Shown piece after piece: positions 3,152-14,720 of a stretch of 64,000 nucleotides of DNA; the stretch's first letter is position 1; each line of letters starts with the position of its first letter. A program made the translations under genes and the position numbers. The notes below the pieces were generated by a model. That model searched no databases. It saw only the letters and a list, made by a program, of their open reading frames with translations, and had not been told where the DNA came from. This stretch comes from Vicinamibacteraceae bacterium (GTDB lineage Bacteria > Acidobacteriota > Thermoanaerobaculia > Multivoradales > Multivoraceae). Location: NCBI GenBank assembly GCA_012270995.1, contig JAAXHG010000122.1, forward strand, positions 8,841 to 72,840, written 5' to 3'.

Positions 3152-4087
3152 ATGCTCCCGACCTGGATGCCGCGCGTCGTCTGCTCGTTCGAAGCGCCCT
3201 GCCGGCGGCCGTTCGACGTCCGGGGCCTGCTCGAGTTCTTCGCGGCCCGCGCGTTGCCGGGCGTGGAGGTCGTCGACAGGGAACGGCTGCTCTACTGCCG
3301 GACGATCGACCTCGCGCGACTGTCGCCGGGGAGGCCGGACGGTCCGCGGCTCGGGATCCTGCGGGTCGGCTTCGGCGACTACCGCATGAATGCGGAAGTA
3401 GACGCCACTGCGAGTGGACGGCTCGAATCGCATCTTGAGGAAGTCGTCGAACGCCGACTGCGGCGACCGTTCGACCTCGACGCGAACCCGAACGTCATAC
3501 GCTCCAGCCTGAGCGATGCACACGAACTGGTTCCGGGCTGTGAGAACCCGGCCGGCTTACGGATTCCCGGCGCCTGGTGCCGCTTCGAAACCGCCGTGCG
3601 GGCTGTGCTGGGTCAGCAGATCTCAGTGGCCGGCGCGCGCACCCTCGCCGGCCGCCTCGTCGCGGCTGCCGGCCGGGAACTTCCTGCGGCTCTGAGAAAG
3701 CCCGGACTCGAGCGGACGTTCCCGGGTCCGGAACAGGTCGCGTCCCTCGACCTCCGGACGATCGGTTTGTCCGGGTCCCGCGCCCGGGCGCTTGGTGACC
3801 TGGCGTCGGAGGTCGCGACCGGCGCGTTGAGGCTGGACGCCGACCCGCAAGAGGTCCGTCGCCGACTGCTCCGCATCAAGGGCGTCGGCCCCTGGACGGT
3901 CGAGTACATCGCGATGCGCGCCCTGGGCGACCGCGACGCGTTTCCTGCCAGCGACCTGGGACTGCGCAAGGCGATCGACGGCGACCAGCCGCCCAGCGCT
4001 GCCTACTTGGAGGCGATGGCGGAAGTCTGGCGACCCATGCGCGCCTATGCGGCGATCCTCTTGTGGCGCCGGGGCGGCGGGGGCTGA
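3152..4087 (+). CDS. alkA: DNA-3-methyladenine glycosylase II (AlkA-type, HhH-GPD)
   Basis: 311 aa. The N-terminus is AlkA_N-like ('LLEFFAARALPGVEVV'). The HhH-GPD core reads 'FETAVRAVLGQQISVAGARTLAGRL' and 'IKGVGPWTVEYIAMRALGDRDAFPASDLGLRKA'. The exact start (3152 or the Met 5 codons later) is uncertain. Confidence 0.75.
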   Translation: MLPTWMPRVVCSFEAPCRRPFDVRGLLEFFAARALPGVEVVDRERLLYCRTIDLARLSPGRPDGPRLGILRVGFGDYRMNAEVDATASGRLESHLEEVVERRLRRPFDLDANPNVIRSSLSDAHELVPGCENPAGLRIPGAWCRFETAVRAVLGQQISVAGARTLAGRLVAAAGRELPAALRKPGLERTFPGPEQVASLDLRTIGLSGSRARALGDLASEVATGALRLDADPQEVRRRLLRIKGVGPWTVEYIAMRALGDRDAFPASDLGLRKAIDGDQPPSAAYLEAMAEVWRPMRAYAAILLWRRGGGG

Positions 4088-4096
4088 GACTCGCTC

Positions 4097-5821
4097 TCAG
4101 GGCTTGCTGACGTCGATGACGCGGACGGCGATCTTACGCCCTTGTTCGTGCGGCAGTTGTCTGGCGAGGCAGGCTTCAAGCCGCTCGCGAAGTCCTTGCG
4201 GGCTTCCGGGGCGAGTCCCCGTCTCGTCCAGCGGCGCCTTGTCGGCGCCGCCGAACCAGAGCGCCAGGAAGATCCCGTGGCCGTCGGTTGCCGGATCCTG
4301 GGTGTACTTGGCGACAAGCTGGTCGCGCGCCGCGCGATACAGGGCAGGGTGGGAGTGCTTCTTGATCTCGATGGGCAGGTGGAAGCCGGTGCAGGACAGA
4401 CGAATGTCGGCGCGCCGATTCGCGGCGTACTGGCTCTCGCGTTGCGCGTCGACTCCGTCGGGCAGGCGGGTCCGCAGATCGCGGAGCAAGGCGTTTCGGC
4501 AGTCGTTCTCGGCTTTGGGTCGGGTCGGTCTGCCGTGTGCGTCCTGGTTCCAATACTGGCTCCAGTCGTTTGTGTTCGTGGTGCGGACCGAGCGCGCGAG
4601 TTCGTCGAGGCGGTCGACGGCGAGGGCGGTGAGGTCGGCGGCGTTGGCGGGCGCGAGGTTGTCGAGCGTGGCGCGGATCTCTCGAAGTTCGGGGCGGCGG
4701 TAGGAGTTGTCGCGGAAGATGATCGCCAGCCGGTCGCGAGCCTGGCGAAGGTGGTCGCGCCAGCGATGGAGCGTTTGGTCGTTTGCCAGTCGGTCCAGGG
4801 CGACGCCGGCTTCGGGTTCCGGCGAAGCTGCAAGGGACTCGATCAGCTCGGGGATACGCCAGAGCACCGATTCGGGCTGTGCGTTGTGCTGTCCTCTACC
4901 CGGTCTTTCGACGATCCTTGGTTTGTCCAACAGGTCGGAGACGCCGTAGGCGGCGCCCGACTGCCGGATCAGGATCTCCAATACGTAGGGCGGCAGTGCG
5001 GCAGGGCGAAACAGTTCGGGGTGTTCCAACCACAGGAACCTGGCGAGCTGCCGCGCACGCAGTTCCCTGCCTCCGATGAAGTTGCCCAGCCGCTCGGCGA
5101 ACGCGTCGGGCGCCGCGACGGTAGCCGCCGCCAGCCAATGGACGCGCTGGTTGACAGTCATGCTCCTGGCCGCGAGCTTCTTCTCGACGAGGTGGAGCAG
5201 CGCTTCGTGGTCCGCATGTTGCAGCGCCGTCCACAGCAGACGCGTCAGGTTGTGCAACTGCCGAGCGTGGCAGCGCACCGGAACGGCGCGCAGGAGGGGC
5301 AGGCAGACGAGGCGAGCAAGCTTGGCGTGGTCGTCGTCGTGCGCCAGGTCCCACAGGCACGGCACGTTCTCCGTGCCGCGTCGCAGTTCCTGGCGAGCCA
5401 GCGGGAGCAGCACATCCGCGACCAACTCGACATCGCGCTCAAGCAGACGCCGGTACCAGTTCGGGTGAACGCTGCGGCTGATCAGTACGGTGAAGTAGAA
5501 GGCACAGGCTTGGCGCTTCTGCCGCTTGCTCAGCCCGTCGACGCATCGCGAGTCGGCGAGGTCCCGTTCGTCGAGCGAAACGAGGAACGGCGTCGCGAGG
5601 TAGTGCATTCGGTTCTCGCCATGGAGACGGAGGATCTCGCCCGCGTCCGGCACGTCCTCGCGTTCGATGACGCTGCGCAGACCGGCGACAATCGCCTTGG
5701 CCAGGTCAGCCTGGTTGCCTAACTCTCCCGCGAGCCAGTCGCAGAGGGAATGTAGTTTTGGTCGTACCGTTGGCCGCGTCGTCGATGAGTTGCCGCGACA
5801 AGCCCTCTTCGCCCTCGTCAT
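4097..5821 (-). CDS. Helical protein ending in a PD-(D/E)xK-like nuclease motif; probably the C-terminal continuation of the upstream STAND NTPase
   Basis: 574-aa ORF that is largely helical or repeat-like. The C-terminus reads 'QRESQYAANRRADIRLSCTGFHLPIEIKKHSHPALYRAARDQLVAKY', an E..D..ExK pattern (IEIKK at about 4358-4372). The first ~20 residues ('MTRAKRACRGNSSTTRPTVRP') look like out-of-frame sequence. The ORF overlaps the upstream ORF by 116 nt. Confidence 0.55.
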   Translation of the reverse strand: MTRAKRACRGNSSTTRPTVRPKLHSLCDWLAGELGNQADLAKAIVAGLRSVIEREDVPDAGEILRLHGENRMHYLATPFLVSLDERDLADSRCVDGLSKRQKRQACAFYFTVLISRSVHPNWYRRLLERDVELVADVLLPLARQELRRGTENVPCLWDLAHDDDHAKLARLVCLPLLRAVPVRCHARQLHNLTRLLWTALQHADHEALLHLVEKKLAARSMTVNQRVHWLAAATVAAPDAFAERLGNFIGGRELRARQLARFLWLEHPELFRPAALPPYVLEILIRQSGAAYGVSDLLDKPRIVERPGRGQHNAQPESVLWRIPELIESLAASPEPEAGVALDRLANDQTLHRWRDHLRQARDRLAIIFRDNSYRRPELREIRATLDNLAPANAADLTALAVDRLDELARSVRTTNTNDWSQYWNQDAHGRPTRPKAENDCRNALLRDLRTRLPDGVDAQRESQYAANRRADIRLSCTGFHLPIEIKKHSHPALYRAARDQLVAKYTQDPATDGHGIFLALWFGGADKAPLDETGTRPGSPQGLRERLEACLARQLPHEQGRKIAVRVIDVSKP

Positions 5822-8096
5822 GGCGGTCGCGCGCTCGACCGAAAAACCAGCGTGCCAGTTCCGGCTGGGCCCCGGCGGTCTTACGAGCCTGCGTCAGGCA
5901 CCAGAGTCCAAAATCGGTCGGGGGCTGTGCCCCCCGCAGCCGCCGGCTAACCAGATGCACTTTGCCTTGCAAGTCCGCCTCGTGGGCGTAGTGGCGAAGG
6001 CCCTCCAGAAGAGCGGCCTTGTAGGCATCCGAGTGAGCCTCCAGCCAGGAACGCACCTTCCTTGATGGGGATTCGGTCAACTCCGGCGGAACTGCGCCAG
6101 GCTCCGGGTCCATCTGGTGGAGTTCGAAGGCCGCTTGCCTCGCCTGTTCGGCTGCCTGCAGTTGGTAGAACTCCTCGTCTGTCCGGGCGGGTCCGTTCAG
6201 CCACTCAGAGAGTTGTTGCGGCGTTAGCGTTTCGCCGTGAACGCTGAGTGCGCGCGCCAGGAGGCTCTCCGCGGAGGCCCGGCCTTCGCCGAAACCGTTG
6301 TCGACCAAACCGAGGTCGGGCCTTTGCGCGGCGAGCGCGTCGACGAGCATGCCGATGTCCTCGTCCGTCGTCTTCTCTTCGAGCGTGCGCATCCAAAAGG
6401 ACCTGTGGCGTCCATGCGCGCTCGTGGGTCGACACCGATCGAGGTGTCTCCAGATCTCCGCCGGCCCGATGGCATCGGGATAGAGCTCCCCGAGCACCGT
6501 GGCGGTTAGCTCGTTATGCACATCGCGGAGAGCGCCGCCCTGAACTTCGCAGAGAATCCGTTTCAACGTGCTGGTTCGCTCCTTCGGGTCCGCGCACTGG
6601 CGGATGAAGGCATCGAGAGCTGCCCAGGTGACCTCCGGCCGCCATTCGTCGTCGTAGAGGATCCTGAGGATCGAAGGCGTGAGCCCAGGCATCGGCGTGC
6701 CGCGGCTCAGCACCCTGAGCGCGAACTTCACCGCGAACTGGTCGTCCTCGCTTCGCCCCGGCGCTGTCAGCAACGCATCGAAGGTGGTTTCGAGCGCCGG
6801 AGCGGAAAGGGACCCGAAGGCTGCCGCGTTCGCGTAGCCAACGTCGTCTAGTCTCCGTCCTTCGCGGATTAGCGCTTCGAGCAGCAACCGTTTCTCGTCG
6901 TCCGAGAAGCCGGCGATGTCGCCGTAGAGGCCGACGCCAATGGGGTCGCGGTCGATCAGTTCCGCCCTGGCTGGCTTGGAGTGCACCGCTAGCCAGGCCG
7001 AGAGTCCACGATGGGCAGTGACTACGCCGCCATCGCCCGTGGTGGTCAGCGCGATGACCCGAGCCGGCGGGAGACCCGCGTCGATCCGCTCCGCCAGGTA
7101 GCGGCCGCCGAGGAACTCGGCGATGTGGCGGTGTATCGGCTCGAAGCGCCGGGCCTCTGGAGAGCTCGCCATCGCCGAGGTAAAGAGCCGGCTCGCCAGA
7201 ACCAGTCGCTGTCGGTGCGCCAAGACCTGTCCATCGCGTGGCGAGGGGCCGGCGAACGGCGGGCCGAGATCGGCGAGCACCGGATGGCCCGCACCCTCTC
7301 CCTCCGCCGCGGAGTCGACGCCGGCGTACCCCGAAAGGAGGAGGAGGGCGCAGATATGACCCGCAGCCTCCAGCAGCAGCGTGTCGGTCGGCCGGTTCCG
7401 GCCGGCGCCTCGGTGCTCCGGATTCACTTCCTGGACCAGTCGCCGGCACGCGTCCTCGAAGAGCTGGCGACGGTTCCTGGGCCATCTGCCGTCGGCGACC
7501 GCCTCAACCAGCAGGGTCAGGTTCTGAGGGTTCCGCAAGAAGCCGCCGAGGCCTCTCGCGTGAGCTTCGCAGAGGAAGGCGGCGGCATTGCCGATCTCGC
7601 TGTCACCGAGGATCGTCGCCGCGTCTGTCTCGGTTAGCGGGTCGAGGCGAAGAACGGCTAGTCGGCCTCCCGGGGCGACGGTTTCCAGCCTGGTCCGATC
7701 GTTGCCTCCGAGCCAGTCGGCTTCCCTGCACGACAGCCGGAAGGTGGGTCTTCCCACCCGGTCCAGTTGCGTGCGAACCCGATCCAGAGCCGGGCGCGGG
7801 TCGTCGTCGCCTGCACGGATCTCGTCAAGACCGTCGATGAAGAGGGTTCGGTCGCGCCACTCCGGGTGGCGTTCCGTGTCGAAGGTGACGAAGTCGCGCG
7901 CCGGAACGAGTATCGCGGACTCTCCCGGCACCGCGCACTCCTGCTTGAAGCACGTCGTTTTGCCGGCGCCGGGGTCGCCCAGGAGCACGAACGCGGCCTG
8001 GGATCGGTACTCCGACAATGGTCTGGAAACGGGCGGCTGCTCGCGCCCGGCGACGGCTTTCGGAAGCTCCGTGCAACTGCGGTTGACAAAGGTCAT
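5706..8096 (-). CDS. NACHT/STAND-type P-loop NTPase with a long helical C-terminal region
   Basis: The ORF track gives 5706-8678. I moved the start to ATG 8096 ('MTFVNRSC..') because the upstream 194 codons are Arg/Ser/Pro-rich junk that overlaps ogt. Walker A is 'LLGDPGAGKTT' (7953-7981). NACHT-style Walker B is 'LFIDGLDE' (7821-7844). 'FRLSCREADW' and 'LRLDPLTETDAATIL' follow. The remaining ~600 aa are helical. Confidence 0.7.
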   Translation of the reverse strand: MTFVNRSCTELPKAVAGREQPPVSRPLSEYRSQAAFVLLGDPGAGKTTCFKQECAVPGESAILVPARDFVTFDTERHPEWRDRTLFIDGLDEIRAGDDDPRPALDRVRTQLDRVGRPTFRLSCREADWLGGNDRTRLETVAPGGRLAVLRLDPLTETDAATILGDSEIGNAAAFLCEAHARGLGGFLRNPQNLTLLVEAVADGRWPRNRRQLFEDACRRLVQEVNPEHRGAGRNRPTDTLLLEAAGHICALLLLSGYAGVDSAAEGEGAGHPVLADLGPPFAGPSPRDGQVLAHRQRLVLASRLFTSAMASSPEARRFEPIHRHIAEFLGGRYLAERIDAGLPPARVIALTTTGDGGVVTAHRGLSAWLAVHSKPARAELIDRDPIGVGLYGDIAGFSDDEKRLLLEALIREGRRLDDVGYANAAAFGSLSAPALETTFDALLTAPGRSEDDQFAVKFALRVLSRGTPMPGLTPSILRILYDDEWRPEVTWAALDAFIRQCADPKERTSTLKRILCEVQGGALRDVHNELTATVLGELYPDAIGPAEIWRHLDRCRPTSAHGRHRSFWMRTLEEKTTDEDIGMLVDALAAQRPDLGLVDNGFGEGRASAESLLARALSVHGETLTPQQLSEWLNGPARTDEEFYQLQAAEQARQAAFELHQMDPEPGAVPPELTESPSRKVRSWLEAHSDAYKAALLEGLRHYAHEADLQGKVHLVSRRLRGAQPPTDFGLWCLTQARKTAGAQPELARWFFGRARDRHDEGEEGLSRQLIDDAANGTTKTTFPLRLARGRVRQPG

Positions 8097-8308
8097 TCGG
8101 CGTTCTCGAACCAATCGGTGGCAGGCCGGGATAGGAATTCGACGAGAGGAATGGTCCCGGACCCCGAGTCGTGCGTGGCCACAAGGAGGACGCGTTCGGG
8201 TCGCACCTTGCGCTCGAACGCGGCCATCCCGCGGGTCCTCCCGTGCTGAGCACCGCTCTTCACTTCGATGCCGACAACTCGCTGGTACCAAGTCAGGAGG
8301 AAGTCCAC
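8093..8308 (-). pseudogene. 3' remnant of a DUF4143-type AAA ATPase (C-terminal restriction-endonuclease-like module only)
   Basis: The translation '(E)VDFLLTWYQRVVGIEVKSGAQHGRTRGMAAFERKV..' matches the conserved C-terminus of COG1373/DUF4143 ATPases ('EVDFVL..IEVKSG..'). The frame is closed by a TAG about 30 codons upstream, so no ATPase domain is present. Its TGA overlaps the NTPase ATG (ATGA at 8093-8096). Confidence 0.5.
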
Positions 8309-8442
8309 TTCGTCGCTGCCCTGCCGGGACCACGGGTTCCCGACCCCTCGACTTGGGTGAGGCCGCTTCGTCCCGGCCCCGCTTCCCGAACGCTAGACTG
8401 AGCTTCTGACGGTGCGCACTGCGCAAGGAAGGAGACCGACCG

Positions 8443-8943
8443 ATGCCCGCTACCCACCACGCCTTCGACACCCCAATCGGCACCCTCCGTCTGGTGGGCG
8501 GCGAGGACTCGATCGACTGCATCGAGCTGCCGAACCGGGCGGCCGAGACGCCTGATCCGGCTTGGGCGCCCTCGAACGGAGGTCTCCCCGCGGCACTCGA
8601 GGAAGCGAAGCGGCAACTCGGCGAGTACTTCGACGGCAAGCGTCGGGAGTTCGACCTGCCGCTCGGCGCCGGTGGCACGGAGTTTCAGCAGCGGGTCTGG
8701 GCCGAACTGCGGCGCATTCCGTTCGGCGAAACGATCTCCTACGGCGAACTCGCGGCCAGGATCGGCAGTCCCTCCGGGTCGCGTGCGGTCGGCCAGGCGA
8801 ACGGCCGTAACCCGCTGCCGATCGTCGTGCCTTGCCACCGGGTCATCAGCCACGACGGGAAGCTCGGGGGATACGGCGGCGGCCTGCAGGTGAAGCAGGC
8901 GTTGCTTGATCTGGAGCGGCGAGGCATCGAAGGGATCGCTTGA
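8443..8943 (+). CDS. ogt: Methylated-DNA--protein-cysteine methyltransferase
   Basis: 166 aa. The active site is 'IVVPCHRVI' (PCHR). 'GETISYGELAARIGSPSGSRAVGQANGRNPLPI' is also present. Shine-Dalgarno AAGGAAGGAG at 8423-8433. Confidence 0.9.
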   Translation: MPATHHAFDTPIGTLRLVGGEDSIDCIELPNRAAETPDPAWAPSNGGLPAALEEAKRQLGEYFDGKRREFDLPLGAGGTEFQQRVWAELRRIPFGETISYGELAARIGSPSGSRAVGQANGRNPLPIVVPCHRVISHDGKLGGYGGGLQVKQALLDLERRGIEGIA

Positions 8944-9130
8944 GCCGGCTTGACGCCGGGAGGGTCCGACGCTGGCGCGCCGGACGCGGGCAGGATACCC
9001 GCTTCGCCATGAAGCCGCGTGGCGGCTGGGGGCTCAGGCCGGTGGTAAGCTGCGCGCCGCCGCTGCAATAACCGCCTGCGCCTTGGCGCCGGCGGAATCG
9101 GTTCCGAACAATCTCCCCCACCGGAGGTTC

Positions 9131-10501
9131 ATGATGCGTCGATGTATCTCTCCACTCGCCGCGCTCGGCGTGGCTTTCCTGGCTGCGGGCGCAGCCTTGG
9201 CCGCGCCGCCGTCCACGGACAACTGGCCTTCGTTCCGCGGCGCGGACGCGATGAGCGTCGCCGCCGACGACCCCCGTCTTCCGGATTCCTGGAGTACGGA
9301 AGAGAACGTGGTCTGGTCGGTGGAGGTTCCGGGTCTCGGCTGGTCCTCGCCGATCGTCCTGGGCGACCGCGTCTTCGTCACCACGGTTTGGAGCGAAGGC
9401 GAGGTCGAGGAACCGAAGAAGGGGCTCTATCTGGGCGGCAACCGGATGCAGCCGTCTTCGGACGTCCATCACTGGACGGTCTATTGCTTTGAGGTCGAGA
9501 CCGGGGAGAAGTGCTGGGAGCGCGAAGTTCTGGTCGGCTCGCCGGACTTCCCCCGGCATCTCAAGAACACCTACGCCTCGGAGACGCCGGTCACCGACGG
9601 TGAGCGGGTGTACGCCTACTTCGGCAACGTCGGCGTGTTCGCCTTCACGCTGGACGGCGAGCCCGTGTGGGAGCGCCGTTTCGAGGCGGTTCCGACCCGC
9701 TACGGCTGGGGCACCGCTGCGTCGCCCATCGTCCACGATGGACAGCTCTACATCGTGAACGACAACGAGGATCAGTCCTACATGCTGGCGCTCGACGCGG
9801 CGACCGGCGAGGAGCTCTGGCGGGATCCCCGCGACGAGGGCAGCAACTGGGCGACGCCCTTCGTCTGGGAGAACGAGTTGCGCACCGAGGTGATCACCGT
9901 AGGTACCGACCAGGTGCGTTCCTACGACAAGGAGGGCAACCTCCTGTGGCACTTCGGCGGCATGTCGTCGATTGCGATCCCGCAGCCTTTCTCGGAGTAC
10001 GGTCTGCTCTACGTGTCCTCGGGCTACATCGGCGATCGGATCCGTCCAGTGTACGCGATCAGGCCGGGCGCCGAAGGCGACATCACCCTGGAAGAGGATC
10101 AGCAGAGCAACCGGTGGGTGGTCTGGTACCAGCCCCAGGCTGGTTCCTACAACCCGACGCCGCTGATCTACCGCGACCGGTTCTATACCCTGCTCGACCG
10201 CGGGTTCTTCACGGCGCACGATCCGAAGACCGGCGCCGAGGTCTACGGCAAGCGGCGCATCGAGCGCGGTTCCGGTGCCTTCACGGCGTCGCCGTGGGCC
10301 TACAACGGCAAGGTGTTCGTGCTCAGTGAGGACGGCGATACCTTCGTCATCGCGGCCGGCGACGAGTTTGAGGTGGTGGGCAAGAACTCGCTCGACGAGA
10401 TGTGCATGTCGACGCCGGCGATCGCCGACGGCAGCCTCTACATCCGGACGCGCAGCAAGCTCTACCGGTTCACGAACCAGGGAGCGTCGGCCGGACCCTG
10501 A
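9131..10501 (+). CDS. Secreted PQQ-like beta-propeller repeat protein (BamB-like fold)
   Basis: ORF 9083-10501, with the start moved to ATG 9131 (GGAGG just upstream). The signal peptide reads 'MMRRCISPLAALGVAFLAAGAALAAP'. Repeated 'G..Y.....G.....d..tGe..W' blades are present (e.g. 'LDAATGEELWR', 'DPKTGAEVYG'). Confidence 0.75.
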   Translation: MMRRCISPLAALGVAFLAAGAALAAPPSTDNWPSFRGADAMSVAADDPRLPDSWSTEENVVWSVEVPGLGWSSPIVLGDRVFVTTVWSEGEVEEPKKGLYLGGNRMQPSSDVHHWTVYCFEVETGEKCWEREVLVGSPDFPRHLKNTYASETPVTDGERVYAYFGNVGVFAFTLDGEPVWERRFEAVPTRYGWGTAASPIVHDGQLYIVNDNEDQSYMLALDAATGEELWRDPRDEGSNWATPFVWENELRTEVITVGTDQVRSYDKEGNLLWHFGGMSSIAIPQPFSEYGLLYVSSGYIGDRIRPVYAIRPGAEGDITLEEDQQSNRWVVWYQPQAGSYNPTPLIYRDRFYTLLDRGFFTAHDPKTGAEVYGKRRIERGSGAFTASPWAYNGKVFVLSEDGDTFVIAAGDEFEVVGKNSLDEMCMSTPAIADGSLYIRTRSKLYRFTNQGASAGP

Positions 10502-11709
10502 TCGAAGGGTGTAGAGCGGCACGGGTCGCGGCGGCCGCATGGGTGCTGGCCGCCGGCGTCCTGCCGGCGGCCGCGGTCGACTTCGATGCGGTGGCGGACG
10601 TGTTCCGCCTCCGCTGCACCGGTTGCCACCATAGGGGTGGGCCGGCGCCGTTCGCGCTCGAGGACTTCGAGCAGGCCCGGGCCTGGTCGTCCTCGATCCG
10701 GCGCGCCGTCGCGTCGGGGCTGATGCCGCCGTGGCACGCCGACCCGCGCTACGGCGAGTTCAGCAACGACCGGCGCCTGCCGGCGGCGGAGAAGGAGAAG
10801 CTGCTGGCCTGGATCGACGGCGGTAGCCGTCCCGGGTCGGGGAGCGGCGCGGTGGCAGCCGCCTCTGGTCCGGACCGTTTACCTGGCTGGCGGATCGGCG
10901 CACCCGACCTGATCTACGAGTTGCCGGACGAGGTCACGATTCCGGCCTCGGGCGAGGTTCCGTACCACGGCTACCGCGTGGAGACGGAGCTTTCCGCCGA
11001 CATCTGGATTCAGGCGGCCGAAACGCAGCCGGGCAACGCCTCGGTCGTTCACCACGTGATCGTGCAGGCGTTCCCGGGCTCCCCTGGAGCGCCGGTGCCC
11101 GGGGGCGGCGATCCGCGCACCGCGGGCGATCTGGGCGGGTATGCGCCGGGCACCGGCCCCCTGGTCATGCCGCCGGGTGTGGGTCGCCGGCTTCCCGCCG
11201 GCGCGGTGATCGACTTCCAGATGCACTACACGCCGACCGGCCGGGTGGAGACCGACCGCAGCCGGATCGGCCTGCTGCTCGCTGTCGAGCCGCCCCGCTA
11301 CGAGTCGCGCACCGCCCTCTGCTCGACTCCCTTCCTGTTCATCCCGGCCGGGGAGAAGGATGTGCGTTTCGAGGCGGAACTCCCGTTCCCGCGGGACAGC
11401 CGCCTGCTTTCGCTGCGGCCGCACATGCATCTGCGCGGCGATACCTTCGAGTTCCGGGCCGCGTACCCGGATGGACGCTCCGAGATCCTGCTGCGCGTCG
11501 ACGGCTACGACTTCAACTGGCAGACGACCTACCGTCTGGCGGAGCCGAAACCCATGCCCGCGGGCACGACGCTGCACTGTGTGGCCACCTACGACAACAG
11601 CAGCGGCAACCCCGGCAACCCGGACCCGACCCGCGACGTCTCGTGGGGCCGGGAGACGACGGACGAGATGATGATCGGCTTCGTCGACTACTACGAGCTG
11701 GACGAGTAG
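10402..11709 (+). CDS. CxxCH-motif protein with a copper type II monooxygenase-like C-terminal domain (putative)
   Basis: It carries a 'CTGCHH' haem-c-type motif, 'MPPWHADPRYGEFSNDRRL', 'HHVIV' and 'HMHLRG'. The true start is unclear: there is no ATG after 10402, and it probably begins near 10500 after the previous stop. Confidence 0.45.
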   Translation: MHVDAGDRRRQPLHPDAQQALPVHEPGSVGRTLIEGCRAARVAAAAWVLAAGVLPAAAVDFDAVADVFRLRCTGCHHRGGPAPFALEDFEQARAWSSSIRRAVASGLMPPWHADPRYGEFSNDRRLPAAEKEKLLAWIDGGSRPGSGSGAVAAASGPDRLPGWRIGAPDLIYELPDEVTIPASGEVPYHGYRVETELSADIWIQAAETQPGNASVVHHVIVQAFPGSPGAPVPGGGDPRTAGDLGGYAPGTGPLVMPPGVGRRLPAGAVIDFQMHYTPTGRVETDRSRIGLLLAVEPPRYESRTALCSTPFLFIPAGEKDVRFEAELPFPRDSRLLSLRPHMHLRGDTFEFRAAYPDGRSEILLRVDGYDFNWQTTYRLAEPKPMPAGTTLHCVATYDNSSGNPGNPDPTRDVSWGRETTDEMMIGFVDYYELDE

Positions 11710-11717
11710 GGGGGATC

Positions 11718-12968
11718 TCAGCCGGAGGGGTTCCACTCGCCGCGGGCGACCGCGGGCACGAACTCGTCGAGACCCTCGGGCGGATAGTCGACGGCCCGAC
11801 CCAGCTCAGCGCTCATGTAGGCGGCCATCAGCAGGCGGGTCACCTCCAGGCCGTCGTCGAAGGTCTCGCGCGGCCGCTTGCCGCGGCGGAAGCTGTCGAC
11901 CATGTGCCGGTTCTCGGCGTCGTAGCCGTAGGCCACGGGCTCGTTCGCGAGCACCGGCATCAGTCCCATCTCCGCGTTCTGCTTCTCGACCAGGTCCTCG
12001 CCGCTTCGCTGCTCCAGGTCGCGACTGAAGAAGAGTTCGAGGTCCGTGTCGAGACTGTTGGCCCGCATCGAGTATTCGGGGCCGAGCAGCTCCATCGACA
12101 GCCGCAGGCCGGCGCCCACGTAGCTCCAGGAGGTCGTCGCCTCGACCACGAGGGGCGTTCCGGCATCGTCTTCGTACTCGACCATGGCGCGGGCGAAGTC
12201 CTCCGCCGGCCGGCGGGCGTAGTCGACCGCGTCGCCGTACTGCCTACTCAGGCGTTCGGCGTACTCCGGCCGCTGCCACTTGAGACAGTGGATCTGGGCG
12301 TGGACACGCTTCGGCGTCAGACTGCTTCTCGGCTTGTGCGGGTCGGTGAGCAGGAAGCGCGCCGCCTCCACCGAGTGGCACATCATGTCGTTGAGCACGC
12401 CGCCGCCCTGCAGGTCGCCGCGCCAGAACCAGGCGTTGTGCGGGCCGGAGTGCTCCTCGGCCGCGCGGGCCAGGTAGGGGCGGCCGGCGGCGCTGGCTCC
12501 GCGTTGCCAGGCGAGCTCACGGCCGCGCACCACGGCGGGACTGAAGACCTGGTTCTCCAGGTAGCCGTCGAGGACCTCGATCTCGCGCGCAAGCTCGACC
12601 ATGCGGAGCGCTTCGGCGGCGTTGCGCGCGAGCGGCTTCTCGCAGGCTATGCCGACGAGGCCGCCGCGGCCGCTTCGTACCACGTCCGCGATCTCCTCCA
12701 TGTTCGCGACCCGTTGGTCGTTGCGGCCGCAGATCCAGATCGCGTCCACGACTTCGTCCTCGACCATCGCTGCGATCGACGGGTACGCCCGAGCTTGGCC
12801 GACGTCGAGTTCGTTCGCGAGAGCCGCCGCCGACTCGGCGCTGGACCCGGTGGGGCTCCAGACGCCCCGAATGTCGGCGCCCCGCACTGCTGTCCAGGAA
12901 CGGATGTGGAAGCGGGTGATGAAGCCGCTGCCGACGAAACCGATGCCGAGGGGAAGCCGGTTCGGCAC
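11718..12968 (-). CDS. Gfo/Idh/MocA family oxidoreductase
   Basis: 416 aa with an N-terminal Rossmann segment 'LGIGFVGSGFITRFHIRSW', which is typical of the family. Confidence 0.8.
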   Translation of the reverse strand: MPNRLPLGIGFVGSGFITRFHIRSWTAVRGADIRGVWSPTGSSAESAAALANELDVGQARAYPSIAAMVEDEVVDAIWICGRNDQRVANMEEIADVVRSGRGGLVGIACEKPLARNAAEALRMVELAREIEVLDGYLENQVFSPAVVRGRELAWQRGASAAGRPYLARAAEEHSGPHNAWFWRGDLQGGGVLNDMMCHSVEAARFLLTDPHKPRSSLTPKRVHAQIHCLKWQRPEYAERLSRQYGDAVDYARRPAEDFARAMVEYEDDAGTPLVVEATTSWSYVGAGLRLSMELLGPEYSMRANSLDTDLELFFSRDLEQRSGEDLVEKQNAEMGLMPVLANEPVAYGYDAENRHMVDSFRRGKRPRETFDDGLEVTRLLMAAYMSAELGRAVDYPPEGLDEFVPAVARGEWNPSG

Positions 12969-13364
12969 CTAGTCTCTCAGGTCCCTGGCCTGCGCGATCC
13001 AGCGTTCGACCATGGGAGCGGAGGGAGCTCGGCGGCTCAGCGTTCGGTCCGCGTTGACCGTGCTCATCTTGGCGGCCAGGTTGAAGGCGCGGCGGCGGCT
13101 CAGGTCGCGCACCGTGCGCACTCCCGACGCGCCGAGCAGCTCGGCGAAGTCTGCGCCGATGCCGCGAATGCGCATCAGGTCGGCCATGTTGACGAACCTT
13201 CGAAGCTGCCGCTCGGGCAGGCCGGTGCGCTCGGACAGCAGACGGCGTGCCCTGCGGCCGTTGCTGGCGGCGAGGAGCGCGTCGGTGGTCCGGATGTCCG
13301 CGGTGGCGAGTTTCTTGGCGACGACGGGACCTACGCCAGCGATCTTTCGGACGCCGTAGGTCAT
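12969..13364 (-). CDS. DUF4332-like helix-hairpin-helix protein
   Basis: 131 aa with two HhH-like repeats ('IAGVGPVVAKKLATADIRTTDALL', 'IRGIGADFAELLGASGVRTVRDL'). Its stop abuts the start of the next gene (12968/12969). Confidence 0.55.
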   Translation of the reverse strand: MTYGVRKIAGVGPVVAKKLATADIRTTDALLAASNGRRARRLLSERTGLPERQLRRFVNMADLMRIRGIGADFAELLGASGVRTVRDLSRRRAFNLAAKMSTVNADRTLSRRAPSAPMVERWIAQARDLRD

Positions 13365-13377
13365 CCCCCCGGGGCGC

Positions 13378-14118
13378 CTATTCGCTGCCTTCGAAGATCA
13401 GGTCGAGGCCTTCCACGTCGCCGCTTACCTCGACCTCGACCACCCGCTCGCCCAGCTTCTCGTGCCAGAAGACGAGTTCATGCGAACCGGCGGGCAAGCC
13501 GTCGATCCGGTACACGCCCTCGCTTCCCGTGGTCGAGTGGAAGGAGTGTTCCATTACGAACACGTAGGCAGCCATCCACGGATGGACGTCGCACTTCACC
13601 TTGATCGGCTTCTCGGCTGCCCGGAACGACTTGATCCTCGTGCCCCGCGCCGGCTGGCCGATGTTGAACGGCCGATTGGCTCTGGCCAGAGCCCGCACGT
13701 TGTGAAGCGTGGGATCGTCGTTGACGATCTCGATGTCCTGCTGGACGCGGACACCGAGAATCCGGGGTGTATAGAGGCAGCCGCGCTGCTCCAGGCGGAC
13801 CGCTTCGGCCGGCGGGTCGTCTGCCGTGCCCTCGGGTGCCTCCTTAAGGTAGACGAAGACGTTCTCGATCGCGCCATCCTCTCCGATCAGGCTGTCGCGC
13901 GAGAGGACCCGTTTGTCGCCGTAGATCTGTTCGCAGTTCGGATCGGCGTCCATGCGCAGCGGGTAGCGCTTGAGCGGCTCTCCTTCGTACGTGACCGTGC
14001 CGCTGATGCTGAAGCTCTCGGCTTCCGCCGCCGGTACGGCGCCGGCGAGAAGAGAGGCGACGGCGAGGGCCGCGGCGGGGATCGACGTGCGCTTGCAGGC
14101 GGAGGGGATGCGCGGCAT
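13378..14118 (-). CDS. Secreted cupredoxin-like (putative copper-binding) protein
   Basis: The start was moved to ATG 14118 so that it no longer overlaps rpsD. The signal peptide reads 'MPRIPSACKRTSIPAAALAVASLLAGAVPAAEA'. Candidate type-1 copper ligands are 'TLHNV' and 'KCDVHPWM' (H, C, H, M). Confidence 0.45.
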   Translation of the reverse strand: MPRIPSACKRTSIPAAALAVASLLAGAVPAAEAESFSISGTVTYEGEPLKRYPLRMDADPNCEQIYGDKRVLSRDSLIGEDGAIENVFVYLKEAPEGTADDPPAEAVRLEQRGCLYTPRILGVRVQQDIEIVNDDPTLHNVRALARANRPFNIGQPARGTRIKSFRAAEKPIKVKCDVHPWMAAYVFVMEHSFHSTTGSEGVYRIDGLPAGSHELVFWHEKLGERVVEVEVSGDVEGLDLIFEGSE

Positions 14119-14126
14119 GTTCGGCC

Positions 14127-14720
14127 TCAGCGGGAGTAGTACTCGATGACGAGAGGCACTTCGCACACGATCGGGACCTCGTCCCGAACCGGTGTGCTGC
14201 GAAGCGTCGCCTGATAGCCCGTTTCGTCGGTCTCGACGTAGGTGGGTACCGTCACGCCGCGGGGCTCGTTGAAGCAGCGGAGCTTGCGGCTCGTTTCGCG
14301 TACCTCGACGACGTCGCCCTCCTTGACCCGGAACGACGGGATGTTCACCCGGCGGCCGTTGACCAGGATGTGACCGTGGCCGACGAACTGGCGAGCGGCG
14401 AACACGCTGGGGGCGAAGGCGCGGTGGACGATCGCGTCGAGCCGGGTCTCAAGCAGCCCGACGAGATTGTCGCCGGTCACGCCCCTCATCCGGGTCGCGC
14501 GCTTGTAGTAGTTGCGGAGCTGGCGCTCGCTGACGTTGTACTGGAAGCGCAACCGCTGCTTCTCGAGCAACTGCCGACCGTAGTTGCTCTGGCGCCGGCG
14601 CCGCTTCAGGCCGTGCATGCCTGGAGGATGGCTCTTTTTCTCCATGTAGCGTGCCGCCTTGGACGTCAGGGCGACGCCCAGCTTCCGCGACAGCTTGACC
14701 TTGGGCCCGTTGAACTTCAC
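14127..14720 (-). CDS. rpsD: 30S ribosomal protein S4
   Basis: 197 aa, unmistakably S4 ('KLSRKLGV', 'YGRQLLEKQRLRFQYNVSERQLRNYY', S4 RNA-binding domain 'LETRLDAIVHRAFAPSVFAARQFVGHGHILVNGRRVNIPSFRV'). GTG start with GGAGA 7 nt upstream. Confidence 0.95.
   Translation of the reverse strand: MKFNGPKVKLSRKLGVALTSKAARYMEKKSHPPGMHGLKRRRRQSNYGRQLLEKQRLRFQYNVSERQLRNYYKRATRMRGVTGDNLVGLLETRLDAIVHRAFAPSVFAARQFVGHGHILVNGRRVNIPSFRVKEGDVVEVRETSRKLRCFNEPRGVTVPTYVETDETGYQATLRSTPVRDEVPIVCEVPLVIEYYSR

What the first reader, a model, noticed from the sequence alone, without database searches (positions are those of the whole stretch)
4097..8096. NACHT/STAND NTPase joined to a far-C-terminal PD-(D/E)xK-like nuclease motif: candidate defence system with inverted domain order
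Seen in sequence:
- A 796-aa ORF begins almost directly with a P-loop. Walker A 'GDPGAGKTT' is at 7953-7981 and the NACHT-style Walker B 'LFIDGLDE' is at 7821-7844. About 600 aa of helical sequence follow.
- The next ORF (574 aa) is again helical and ends with 'QRESQYAANRRADIRLSCTGFHLPIEIKK..RDQLVAKY'. This is an E-x11-D-x12-ExK arrangement (about 4355-4420), which is the restriction-endonuclease-fold catalytic pattern.

Established knowledge: bacterial STAND/NACHT NTPases carrying nuclease or other effectors (Avs/AVAST, bNACHT) are antiphage sensors. In the described types the effector is N-terminal and the sensor is C-terminal.

Inference: here the NTPase is at the extreme N-terminus and the putative nuclease is more than 1,000 residues downstream at the extreme C-terminus. 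The block is an island inserted into a DNA-repair gene pair. I do not recognise this architecture among named defence systems.
Basis: partly seen in the sequence, partly recalled or inferred. Interest (0 to 1): 0.75.

Follow-up and report, generated by a model that had tools for sequence, protein, structure and literature searches.

The report
Broken Erebus-like antiphage NACHT gene
The two ORFs are the halves of one known type of antiphage sensor gene (Erebus/Avs10-like: NACHT ATPase, helical sensor, C-terminal nuclease-like domain), split here by a 221-base deletion and with its upstream partner gene mostly deleted, so it is most likely a decaying relic and not a new defence system.

Summary
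The N-terminal 430 aa fold as a NACHT module (Foldseek, NOD2, E 5e-10). The C-terminal E/D/ExK residues are invariant in 59 homologues and lie on an alpha-beta-beta-beta-alpha-beta core, and its best fold matches are nearly all PD-(D/E)xK nucleases, though only at borderline significance.

The architecture is not unnamed. The two ORFs match positions 17-701 and 796-1318 of one NCBIfam model, the antiphage protein EruA (Erebus). A 2026 Nature paper groups Erebus, Hypnos and bNACHT64 as Avs10, a sensor of the phage major capsid protein. More than 2,900 homologues exist, and they are normally one protein of about 1,380 aa.

Compared with intact orthologues, the window copy lacks a net 221 nt. This shifts the frame and removes a nearly invariant motif.

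In 78 of the 80 closest loci a gene for an AAA_14/DUF4143 ATPase (PADLOC candidate PDC-S01) sits directly upstream. Here only its last 109 codons remain.

The cassette lies between ogt and alkA in 12 related Acidobacteriota genomes. It is broken in different ways in three of them.

Verdict: a degraded member of a known family, of low interest. The conserved PDC-S01 pairing is the one lead worth following.

The parts
5706..8096 (-). ORF A (796 aa). It corresponds to residues 1-761 of an Erebus-like (EruA/Avs10-family) STAND protein, followed by about 35 out-of-frame codons and a premature stop.
   Evidence: NCBIfam EruA profile positions 17-701, E 1.4e-128. tblastn of the intact orthologue P0015, aa 1-761, maps to 8096..5772.
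6807..8096 (-). NACHT NTPase module (ORF A residues 1-430). Walker A G40-T48 is at 7953..7979 and Walker B L85-E92 at 7821..7844.
   Evidence: Motifs are invariant in 51 homologues. The model has pLDDT 82.7. Foldseek hits NOD2 at 4.8e-10, and also NLRC4, NAIP and NLRP3.
5742..5775 (-). Deletion junction. A net 221 nt (3x73+2) is missing relative to intact orthologues. The loss changes the reading frame and removes about 76-82 codons, including the conserved ...ALRENRAAPxLLxxLA... motif.
   Evidence: blastn against L007, L005 and L004 gives gaps of 256-268 nt in the relatives against 35-47 nt here. tblastn shows the junction alignments.
4097..5821 (-). ORF B (574 aa as the longest ORF; 503 aa in the public gene call). 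It is the C-terminal part of the same ancestral protein: helical sensor plus nuclease-like domain. Homology starts near 5746-5764.
   Evidence: NCBIfam EruA profile positions 796-1318, E 2.8e-102. tblastn of P0015 aa 844-1386 maps to 5746..4100.
4100..4684 (-). C-terminal DUF8371 (PF28130) domain with a PD-(D/E)xK-like core. Residues: E438 (4508-4510), E462 (4436-4438), D472 (4406-4408), E485 (4367-4369), K487 (4361-4363), Q501 (4319-4321).
   Evidence: These residues are invariant in 59 homologues. The model has pLDDT 90.6 with a helix-strand-strand-strand-helix-strand core. Top Foldseek hits are restriction endonucleases, Hjc, NucS, Can1/Can2 and McrC, but with E of 0.017 or worse in PDB and 1.2e-3 or worse in BFVD. 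The domain is at the extreme C-terminus in 1,706 representative clusters.
8093..8422 (-). Remnant (last ~109 codons, with an internal stop) of the upstream AAA_14/DUF4143 ATPase gene (PADLOC PDC-S01-like). Its stop overlaps the ATG of ORF A (ATGA).
   Evidence: tblastn of the L004 421-aa protein, aa 313-421, at 45% identity. Translation. The intact protein hits PDC-S01 at E 6e-147. The same remnant is 100% identical in three further independent assemblies.
8443..8943 (+). ogt (O6-methylguanine-DNA methyltransferase), the conserved flank of the locus. Only about 20 nt of the original ogt/AAA_14 intergenic region remain upstream of it.
   Evidence: Pfam and NCBIfam hits. Synteny in 12 related genomes. 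blastn boundaries.
3152..4087 (+). alkA-like DNA-3-methyladenine glycosylase II, the other conserved flank.
   Evidence: Pfam AlkA_N plus HhH-GPD. Synteny.

Best explanation
This is the decaying remnant of an Erebus-like (Avs10-family) antiviral STAND cassette.

In intact relatives the cassette is a two-gene operon. The first gene encodes a 421-430-aa AAA_14/DUF4143 ATPase (PADLOC candidate PDC-S01). Its stop codon overlaps the start of the second gene. The second gene encodes one protein of about 1,380 aa: an N-terminal NACHT NTPase, about 750 aa of helical sensor, and a C-terminal DUF8371 domain with a PD-(D/E)xK-like core.

The mechanism is inferred by analogy with Avs10 and other Avs proteins; nothing here shows it directly. 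The helical sensor would bind a conserved phage protein (the HK97-fold major capsid protein in the Avs10 members tested). The NACHT module would then oligomerise. The clustered C-terminal nuclease domains would cut DNA and abort the infection.

Two deletions are shown in the window copy. A net 221-nt out-of-frame deletion splits the big gene after about residue 761 and removes a nearly invariant motif. A deletion of about 1.08 kb removed codons 1-312 of the partner gene and nearly all of the upstream intergenic region, which probably held the promoter. I infer that the locus is most likely non-functional.
For: - Family: ORF A and ORF B match consecutive parts (positions 17-701 and 796-1318) of the single 1,318-position EruA model. 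The HyoA model matches more weakly.
- The intact orthologue P0015 matches EruA positions 20-1318, E 6e-249.
- Literature equates Erebus, Hypnos and bNACHT64 with Avs10, which is triggered by the major capsid protein, and loss of the effector abolishes toxicity.
- There are 2,909 homologues, and those listed are mostly single proteins of 1,340-1,390 aa carrying PF28130.
- The NACHT fold is confirmed.
- Nuclease-like domain: catalytic-type residues are invariant, the model is confident, and the fold neighbours are PD-(D/E)xK nucleases.
- The lesions are mapped.
- The partner gene lies directly upstream in 78 of 80 loci from more than 12 phyla.
- Synteny: the cassette sits between ogt and alkA in L001-L012. 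It is intact in nine of them and broken in different ways in L001, L002 and L003.
- Homologues elsewhere lie beside RM systems, toxin-antitoxin genes, Ppl, Abi, ApeA and IS elements.
- The remnant sequence is identical in independent assemblies.
Against: - Apart from the single lesion, both ORFs are open over 2.3 and 1.6 kb and keep every Walker and nuclease residue. Either the break is recent or the halves are still under selection.
- Scores stay below NCBIfam's equivalog cut-off of 1000 bits: 431 + 344 here and 830 for the intact orthologue. This is a relative of EruA, not a strict equivalog.
- No PD-(D/E)xK structural match reaches E < 1e-3.
- The trigger and the nuclease activity are inferred from other family members, not tested.
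- The short independent contigs do not span the internal deletion. It is seen in the window, in L094, and in four similar contigs the tool reported but did not show.
- I could not read van den Berg et al. 2024, the paper that defines Erebus.
Confidence: 0.7

Rival explanations
1. The locus is a working split system. The two polypeptides (NACHT plus the N-terminal half of the sensor, and the C-terminal half of the sensor plus the nuclease) associate non-covalently and still defend the cell.
For: - There is only one lesion in 4 kb, and all catalytic residues are retained.
- A Vicinamibacterales homologue (L070) is frameshifted in the same linker region.
- In-frame variants that lack large parts of the sensor exist (L014, L019, L060).
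- P0054 is intact with only a 56-aa ORF upstream, so the big protein may work without its partner.
Against: - The deletion removes a motif that is at least 90% conserved across the family.
- There is no recognisable ribosome-binding site before either candidate start of ORF B.
- The partner gene and the upstream intergenic region are deleted.
- Three sister genomes carry independent and heavier damage at the same locus, which points to relaxed selection.
Confidence: 0.15
2. One reading: a previously unnamed two-gene defence system with an inverted STAND domain order.
For: - Pfam and the 2023 PADLOC database find nothing for either ORF.
- Most described Avs and bNACHT proteins carry N-terminal effectors.
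Against: - NCBIfam's EruA and HyoA models have this same order and match end to end.
- The family has been named Erebus, Hypnos, bNACHT64 and Avs10.
- Homologues are single proteins.
- C-terminal effectors in NACHT proteins were already described.
Confidence: 0.03
3. The split is an assembly or sequencing artefact, and the organism carries an intact gene.
For: - The source is a metagenome scaffold.
- The three short independent contigs cover only the 5' end and the remnant, not the 221-nt junction.
Against: - A 221-nt loss is not a homopolymer-type error.
- The window equals L094 over 6.5 kb, and four more similar contigs were reported.
- The second lesion, the truncation of the partner gene, is reproduced exactly in three other samples.
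- Sister genomes from long-read assemblies also carry broken copies.
Confidence: 0.05

Closest known systems
Erebus (EruA; NCBIfam NF058535), grouped with Hypnos and bNACHT64 as Avs10 (van den Berg et al. 2024; Kibby et al. 2023; Lee et al. 2026, PMC13581612)
   Same: - Collinear match from about residue 20 to the last residue of the 1,318-position model.
- NACHT module at the extreme N-terminus, a long helical sensor, and a conserved C-terminal domain.
- Homologues lie in defence islands.
   Different: - The score is below the equivalog cut-off: 830 bits for the intact orthologue and 775 bits summed for the window, against 1000.
- In this clade the gene is coupled to an upstream AAA_14/DUF4143 gene. 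Proteobacterial plasmid homologues lack that gene.
- The window copy is split and its partner is truncated.
- Whether it is triggered by the capsid protein is untested.
Hypnos (HyoA; NCBIfam NF058534)
   Same: It shares the C-terminal DUF8371 region (ORF B 326-573 matches HyoA 1186-1429 of 1430) and part of the sensor.
   Different: The similarity is much weaker (89 and 67 bits), and the N-terminal NTPase region is not matched.
Avs1-4 and most bNACHT proteins (Gao et al. 2022; Kibby et al. 2023)
   Same: - STAND NTPase plus a large helical sensor plus a nuclease-type effector.
- The expected logic is the same: target binding, then oligomerisation, then effector activation. Avs4 also appears among the fold hits.
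   Different: The effector is at the C-terminus instead of the N-terminus. There is no detectable sequence similarity to PADLOC's Avs or NLR models.
PADLOC PDC-S01 (AAA_14 + DUF4143 ATPase with a PD-(D/E)xK-type C-terminus; an unvalidated defence candidate, PMC12988326)
   Same: The upstream partner in intact relatives matches model PDLC04791 end to end, E 6e-147. The window keeps its last 109 codons, including the ...EVDF...EVKSG... part.
   Different: PDC-S01 is catalogued as a single-gene candidate. Here it is translationally coupled to an Erebus-like gene, and in P0136 it is fused to it. In the window it is only a fragment.

Membership tests
Erebus / EruA (Avs10 family) | Full-length collinear match to the EruA profile at or above NCBIfam's equivalog cut-off (1000 bits) | tested here: not met
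   The match is collinear and highly significant: ORF A covers positions 17-701 (431 bits) and ORF B covers 796-1318 (344 bits). The intact orthologue P0015 covers 20-1318 with 829.7 bits. All of these are below 1000. It is therefore a relative or subfamily, not a strict equivalog.
Erebus / EruA (Avs10 family) | N-terminal NACHT-type STAND NTPase with intact Walker A and Walker B | tested here: met
   GDPGAGKTT and LFIDGLDE are conserved. The fold matches NOD2, NLRC4 and NLRP3 with E down to 4.8e-10.
Erebus / EruA (Avs10 family) | Conserved C-terminal effector domain (DUF8371) with a nuclease-type active site | tested here: inconclusive
   The domain is present and E, E, D, ExK and Q are invariant. 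The model is confident. Fold neighbours are PD-(D/E)xK nucleases, but only at E 0.017 (PDB) and 1.2e-3 (BFVD). I could not read any published assignment of the Erebus effector.
Erebus / EruA (Avs10 family) | One uninterrupted polypeptide of about 1,300-1,400 aa | tested here: not met
   A net 221-nt out-of-frame deletion splits the gene into 796-aa and 574-aa ORFs. Homologues are single proteins.
Erebus / EruA (Avs10 family) | Antiphage activity, and activation by the phage major capsid protein | not testable with these tools
   Reported for tested Avs10 members in PMC13581612.
STAND / Avs antiviral ATPases (general) | Three parts: effector, NTPase and a large repeat or helical sensor | tested here: met
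   All three parts are present in the order NTPase, sensor, effector. Kibby et al. describe such C-terminal effectors.
PADLOC PDC-S01 (the upstream partner) | Complete AAA_14 ATPase plus DUF4143 protein | tested here: not met
   Only aa 313-421 survive, with an internal stop. Intact relatives match PDLC04791 at E 6e-147.
PD-(D/E)xK nuclease superfamily (C-terminal domain) | alpha-beta-beta-beta-alpha-beta core with an acidic residue at the start of strand 2 and (D/E)xK in strand 3 | tested here: inconclusive
   The secondary-structure order is H59-71, E79-82, E94-98, E101-109, H115-127, E137-143. D93 precedes strand 2 and E106/K108 lie in strand 3. No structural hit reaches E < 1e-3. I could not inspect how the residues cluster in 3D.

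The most novel reading that the evidence does not exclude
The AAA_14/DUF4143 ATPase-nuclease (PADLOC's unvalidated 'single-gene' candidate PDC-S01) and the Erebus-like NACHT protein may form an obligate two-component defence system in a clade that spans more than 12 phyla.

Three observations support this. The genes are translationally coupled in 78 of 80 loci. The ATPase is the better conserved of the two (about 50-60% identity against 37-43%). The two are fused into one 1,812-aa protein in at least one case.

If so, the cassette would be a new two-gene variant of Erebus/Avs10. The window would show what remains when both halves decay together.
Probability: 0.3. Interest if true: 0.5.

Novelty: new member of a known kind. 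Interest (0 to 1): 0.25.

Why it matters
As submitted, the finding does not reveal a new defence architecture. The order NACHT, sensor, C-terminal nuclease-like domain is the normal layout of the Erebus/Hypnos/Avs10 family, and this copy is broken.

It still has three modest uses.
1. It is a clean example of a defence cassette eroding in place at a conserved chromosomal hotspot (ogt|alkA), with four independent decay paths in sister genomes.
2. It brought to light a very consistent pairing of an Erebus-like gene with the abundant but unvalidated PDC-S01 ATPase. That pairing could be tested for cooperation.
3. It shows that annotation pipelines lacking the 2026 NCBIfam models (Pfam, PADLOC 2023) still miss this family.

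Tried and rejected
- Pfam-A and PADLOC-DB 2.0 scans of both ORFs gave nothing useful.
- A profile search of PDB sequences gave no NLR or nuclease hit. The only match was a short similarity to ribosome-recycling factor.
- A scan of viral contigs for relatives found none, so there is no sign that (pro)phages carry the gene.
- The promoter and terminator scan of 3900..8700 found no sigma-70-like site. This says little for a 68% GC acidobacterial genome.
- Literature: van den Berg 2024 (which defines Erebus and Hypnos) and the published Kibby 2023 paper are not held. No supplements are held for Lee et al.. I therefore could not confirm the published effector annotation, the gene content of Erebus, or what bNACHT64 looks like.
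- A text search for 'EruA' only found an unrelated E. coli regulator of the same name.
- The exact 574-aa ORF B is not in the protein collection, because public gene calls start it 71 codons later.
- I considered a programmed frameshift. I rejected it because the lesion is a 221-nt loss that is absent from orthologues.

Full report
**1. What is in the sequence**

The region holds two minus-strand ORFs. ORF A is 5706..8096 (796 aa from the ATG at 8096). ORF B is 4097..5821 (574 aa). They overlap by 116 nt in different frames. The region is about 65-70% GC, like its surroundings. The flanking genes are an alkA-like glycosylase (3152..4087, +) and ogt (8443..8943, +).

Walker A GDPGAGKTT is at 7953..7979 and Walker B LFIDGLDE at 7821..7844. 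The C-terminal string reads E462-x9-D472-x12-E485-x-K487, so the spacing is x9 and not x11.

The nuclease-type pattern on its own is weak evidence. It turns up in 42% of shuffles of ORF B.

**2. The two ORFs are one gene**

Pfam and the 2023 PADLOC models find nothing. NCBIfam does. ORF A matches positions 17-701 and ORF B matches positions 796-1318 of a single 1,318-position model, NF058535, 'NACHT domain-containing antiphage protein EruA' (E 1e-128 and 3e-102). The HyoA model gives weaker hits.

A search with ORF A returns 2,909 homologues. Those listed are overwhelmingly single proteins of 1,340-1,390 aa that carry PF28130 (DUF8371) at the C-terminus.

The intact orthologue P0015 (1,386 aa) aligns in two pieces. 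Residues 1-761 map to 8096..5772 in one frame, and residues 844-1386 map to 5746..4100 in another.

At the nucleotide level, three intact relatives have 256-268 nt where the window has 35-47 nt. That is a net loss of 221 nt (3x73+2), which explains the frame change.

The lost segment is not just a variable linker. It contains the motif ...ALRENRAAPxLLxxLA..., whose N, R, P and L positions are at least 90% conserved.

**3. A missed partner gene**

In intact relatives, a 421-430-aa AAA_14 + DUF4143 protein is encoded directly upstream. Its stop overlaps the ATG of the big gene. This protein matches PADLOC's candidate PDC-S01 end to end (E 6e-147). PDC-S01 is an abundant but experimentally unvalidated ATPase plus PD-(D/E)xK protein (PMC12988326).

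I looked at the 80 best genome loci, which come from more than 12 phyla (Acidobacteriota, Latescibacterota, Gemmatimonadota, Chloroflexota, Binatia, Nitrospirota, Actinomycetota, Verrucomicrobiota, Gammaproteobacteria and others). The partner lies immediately upstream in 78 of them. By my reading of the alignments, about 74 look intact, 2 are frameshifted, 1 is a remnant and 1 is cut by a contig end.

One representative protein, P0136 (1,812 aa), is a fusion of the two.

In the window only codons 313-421 survive (8422..8093), with an internal stop. The homology breaks about 20 nt from the ogt start, so the original intergenic region is gone too.

The same truncated remnant is 100% identical in three independent short assemblies from other samples.

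**4. Genomic setting**

The window is identical to a metagenome scaffold (L094). Public gene calls there are 503, 796 and 44 aa.

Twelve related genomes (Ca. Multivorans and other Thermoanaerobaculia) share the flanks rpsD, DUF4332, GFO_IDH_MocA, PQQ_2 and ogt on one side and alkA and ADH on the other. All twelve carry the cassette between ogt and alkA.

Nine copies are intact. L001, L002 and L003 are broken, each in a different and more severe way.

The site also takes up variable cargo: Uma2, ApeA_NTD1, an N6_N4 methylase with a ResIII helicase, and an IS element. It therefore behaves as a long-standing defence hotspot and not as a recent insertion.

The cassette proteins differ far more between these genomes (54-68% identity for the big protein; 58% versus 96% for the ATPase) than the flanking proteins do (about 75-95%). 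This fits fast evolution or allele replacement.

Elsewhere, homologues sit beside BrnT and antitoxin genes with an Eco57I-type RM system, beside methylases, ApeA, NucS_C and IS21, and on a Pantoea plasmid beside Ppl and Abi. No relatives were found on viral contigs.

**5. Domains**

- *N-terminus.* The model of residues 1-430 (pLDDT 82.7) matches the NACHT modules of NOD2 (4.8e-10), NLRC4, NAIP and NLRP3.
- *C-terminus.* The 195-aa model is confident (pLDDT 90.6). Its secondary-structure order is helix, strand, strand, strand, helix, strand. The invariant residues E438, E462, D472, E485, K487 and Q501 fall where a PD-(D/E)xK site would have them.
- *Fold matches.* Foldseek finds no match below E 1e-3. 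Even so, the top PDB hits are almost all PD-(D/E)xK enzymes: the Lassa L endonuclease, BspD6I, OkrAI, PspGI, Can1/Can2, Hjc, McrC, NucS, SfsA and PaqCI. The named BFVD hits are restriction endonucleases, nucleases and a RecU-like protein, with the best at E 1.2e-3.
- *Distribution.* The domain is found in 1,706 representative clusters, always at the extreme C-terminus.

I rate the nuclease fold as likely but not proven.

**6. Relation to known systems**

Lee et al. (Nature 2026, PMC13581612, and its preprints) treat Erebus, Hypnos and bNACHT64 as one family, Avs10. In their work it is activated by the phage major capsid protein and binds the A-domain of the HK97 fold. They report that mutating or deleting the effector domains abolished toxicity in every Avs family they tested.

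Kibby et al. noted that some bacterial NACHT proteins carry their effector at the extreme C-terminus. The 'inverted order' is therefore the family norm.

Strict membership is not established. Even the intact orthologue scores 830 bits against a cut-off of 1000. A Pantoea plasmid homologue without a partner gene scores 776 bits. I file the window locus as a degraded member of an Erebus-like subfamily.

**7. Mechanism and status**

*Shown:* the family relationship, the NACHT fold, the conserved nuclease-type residues, the two deletions, and the synteny.

*Inferred:* that the intact protein works like other Avs proteins (sensor binds a phage structural protein, the NACHT module oligomerises, the C-terminal nuclease is activated), and that the window copy no longer works.

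The case for loss of function rests on four points:
- a conserved motif is missing;
- there is no obvious ribosome-binding site for ORF B;
- the partner gene and the upstream intergenic region are gone;
- sister genomes show independent decay.

Against it, both ORFs are otherwise undamaged, so either the break is recent or a split protein still works. I give that rival 0.15.

**8. Verdict**

The locus is a known kind of antiphage STAND gene, caught in the process of being lost. The conserved coupling to PDC-S01 is the only lead with some novelty.

Noticed in passing
L004 8739-14161, L007-L086 (around 8700-14200 in each); window 8093-8422: An AAA_14/DUF4143 (PADLOC PDC-S01) gene is translationally coupled to the Erebus-like gene in 78 of 80 loci from more than 12 phyla. 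It is better conserved than its partner (about 50-60% identity against 37-43%). In P0136 (1,812 aa) the two are fused. Proteobacterial plasmid homologues lack it.
   Followed up: partly
L001-L012, between ogt and alkA/ADH (e.g. L006 14240-22522; L002 13128-17388): The ogt|alkA site in Ca. Multivorans-like genomes is a variable hotspot. Its cargo includes Uma2-like proteins, an ApeA_NTD1 protein (PDC-S58), an N6_N4 methylase with a ResIII helicase, a 755-aa CarboxypepD_reg protein and an IS element. alkA itself is missing in L002 and L006.
   Followed up: partly
Family alignment A1, profile positions 758-817 (P0015 aa ~780-835); deleted from the window: The conserved motif VRSNxxALRENRAAPxLLxxLAxxYF resembles the N-terminal region of chloroplast ribosome-recycling factor (5mlc_9 and 6eri_Az, E 2e-4 over 60 aa). 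It could be chance or helical bias.
   Followed up: no
L014, L019, L060; L037, L044, L046, L070, L078: About 10% of the 80 related loci carry lesions or shortened forms. Three have large in-frame gaps in the sensor (aa ~454-797 or ~549-799). L037 looks interrupted by inserted DNA. L070 is frameshifted in the same linker region as the window.
   Followed up: no
window 8422-8443: The ~1.08-kb deletion that truncated the partner gene leaves only about 20 nt of the original intergenic region upstream of ogt. The native ogt promoter may therefore also have been lost or replaced.
   Followed up: no
record titles of L007-L086: Close relatives (44-69% identity over the N-terminal 430 aa) are spread over many phyla. 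Several titles (Ca. Poriferisocius, Ca. Entotheonella, Ca. Multivorans) name taxa that I know as sponge symbionts. This suggests horizontal spread within one habitat.
   Followed up: no
window 10402-11709 and 9083-10501: A Cu2_monoox_C-like protein and a PQQ_2 beta-propeller protein lie next to ogt. They are conserved in all syntenic genomes, so they are housekeeping flanks and not part of the cassette.
   Followed up: no
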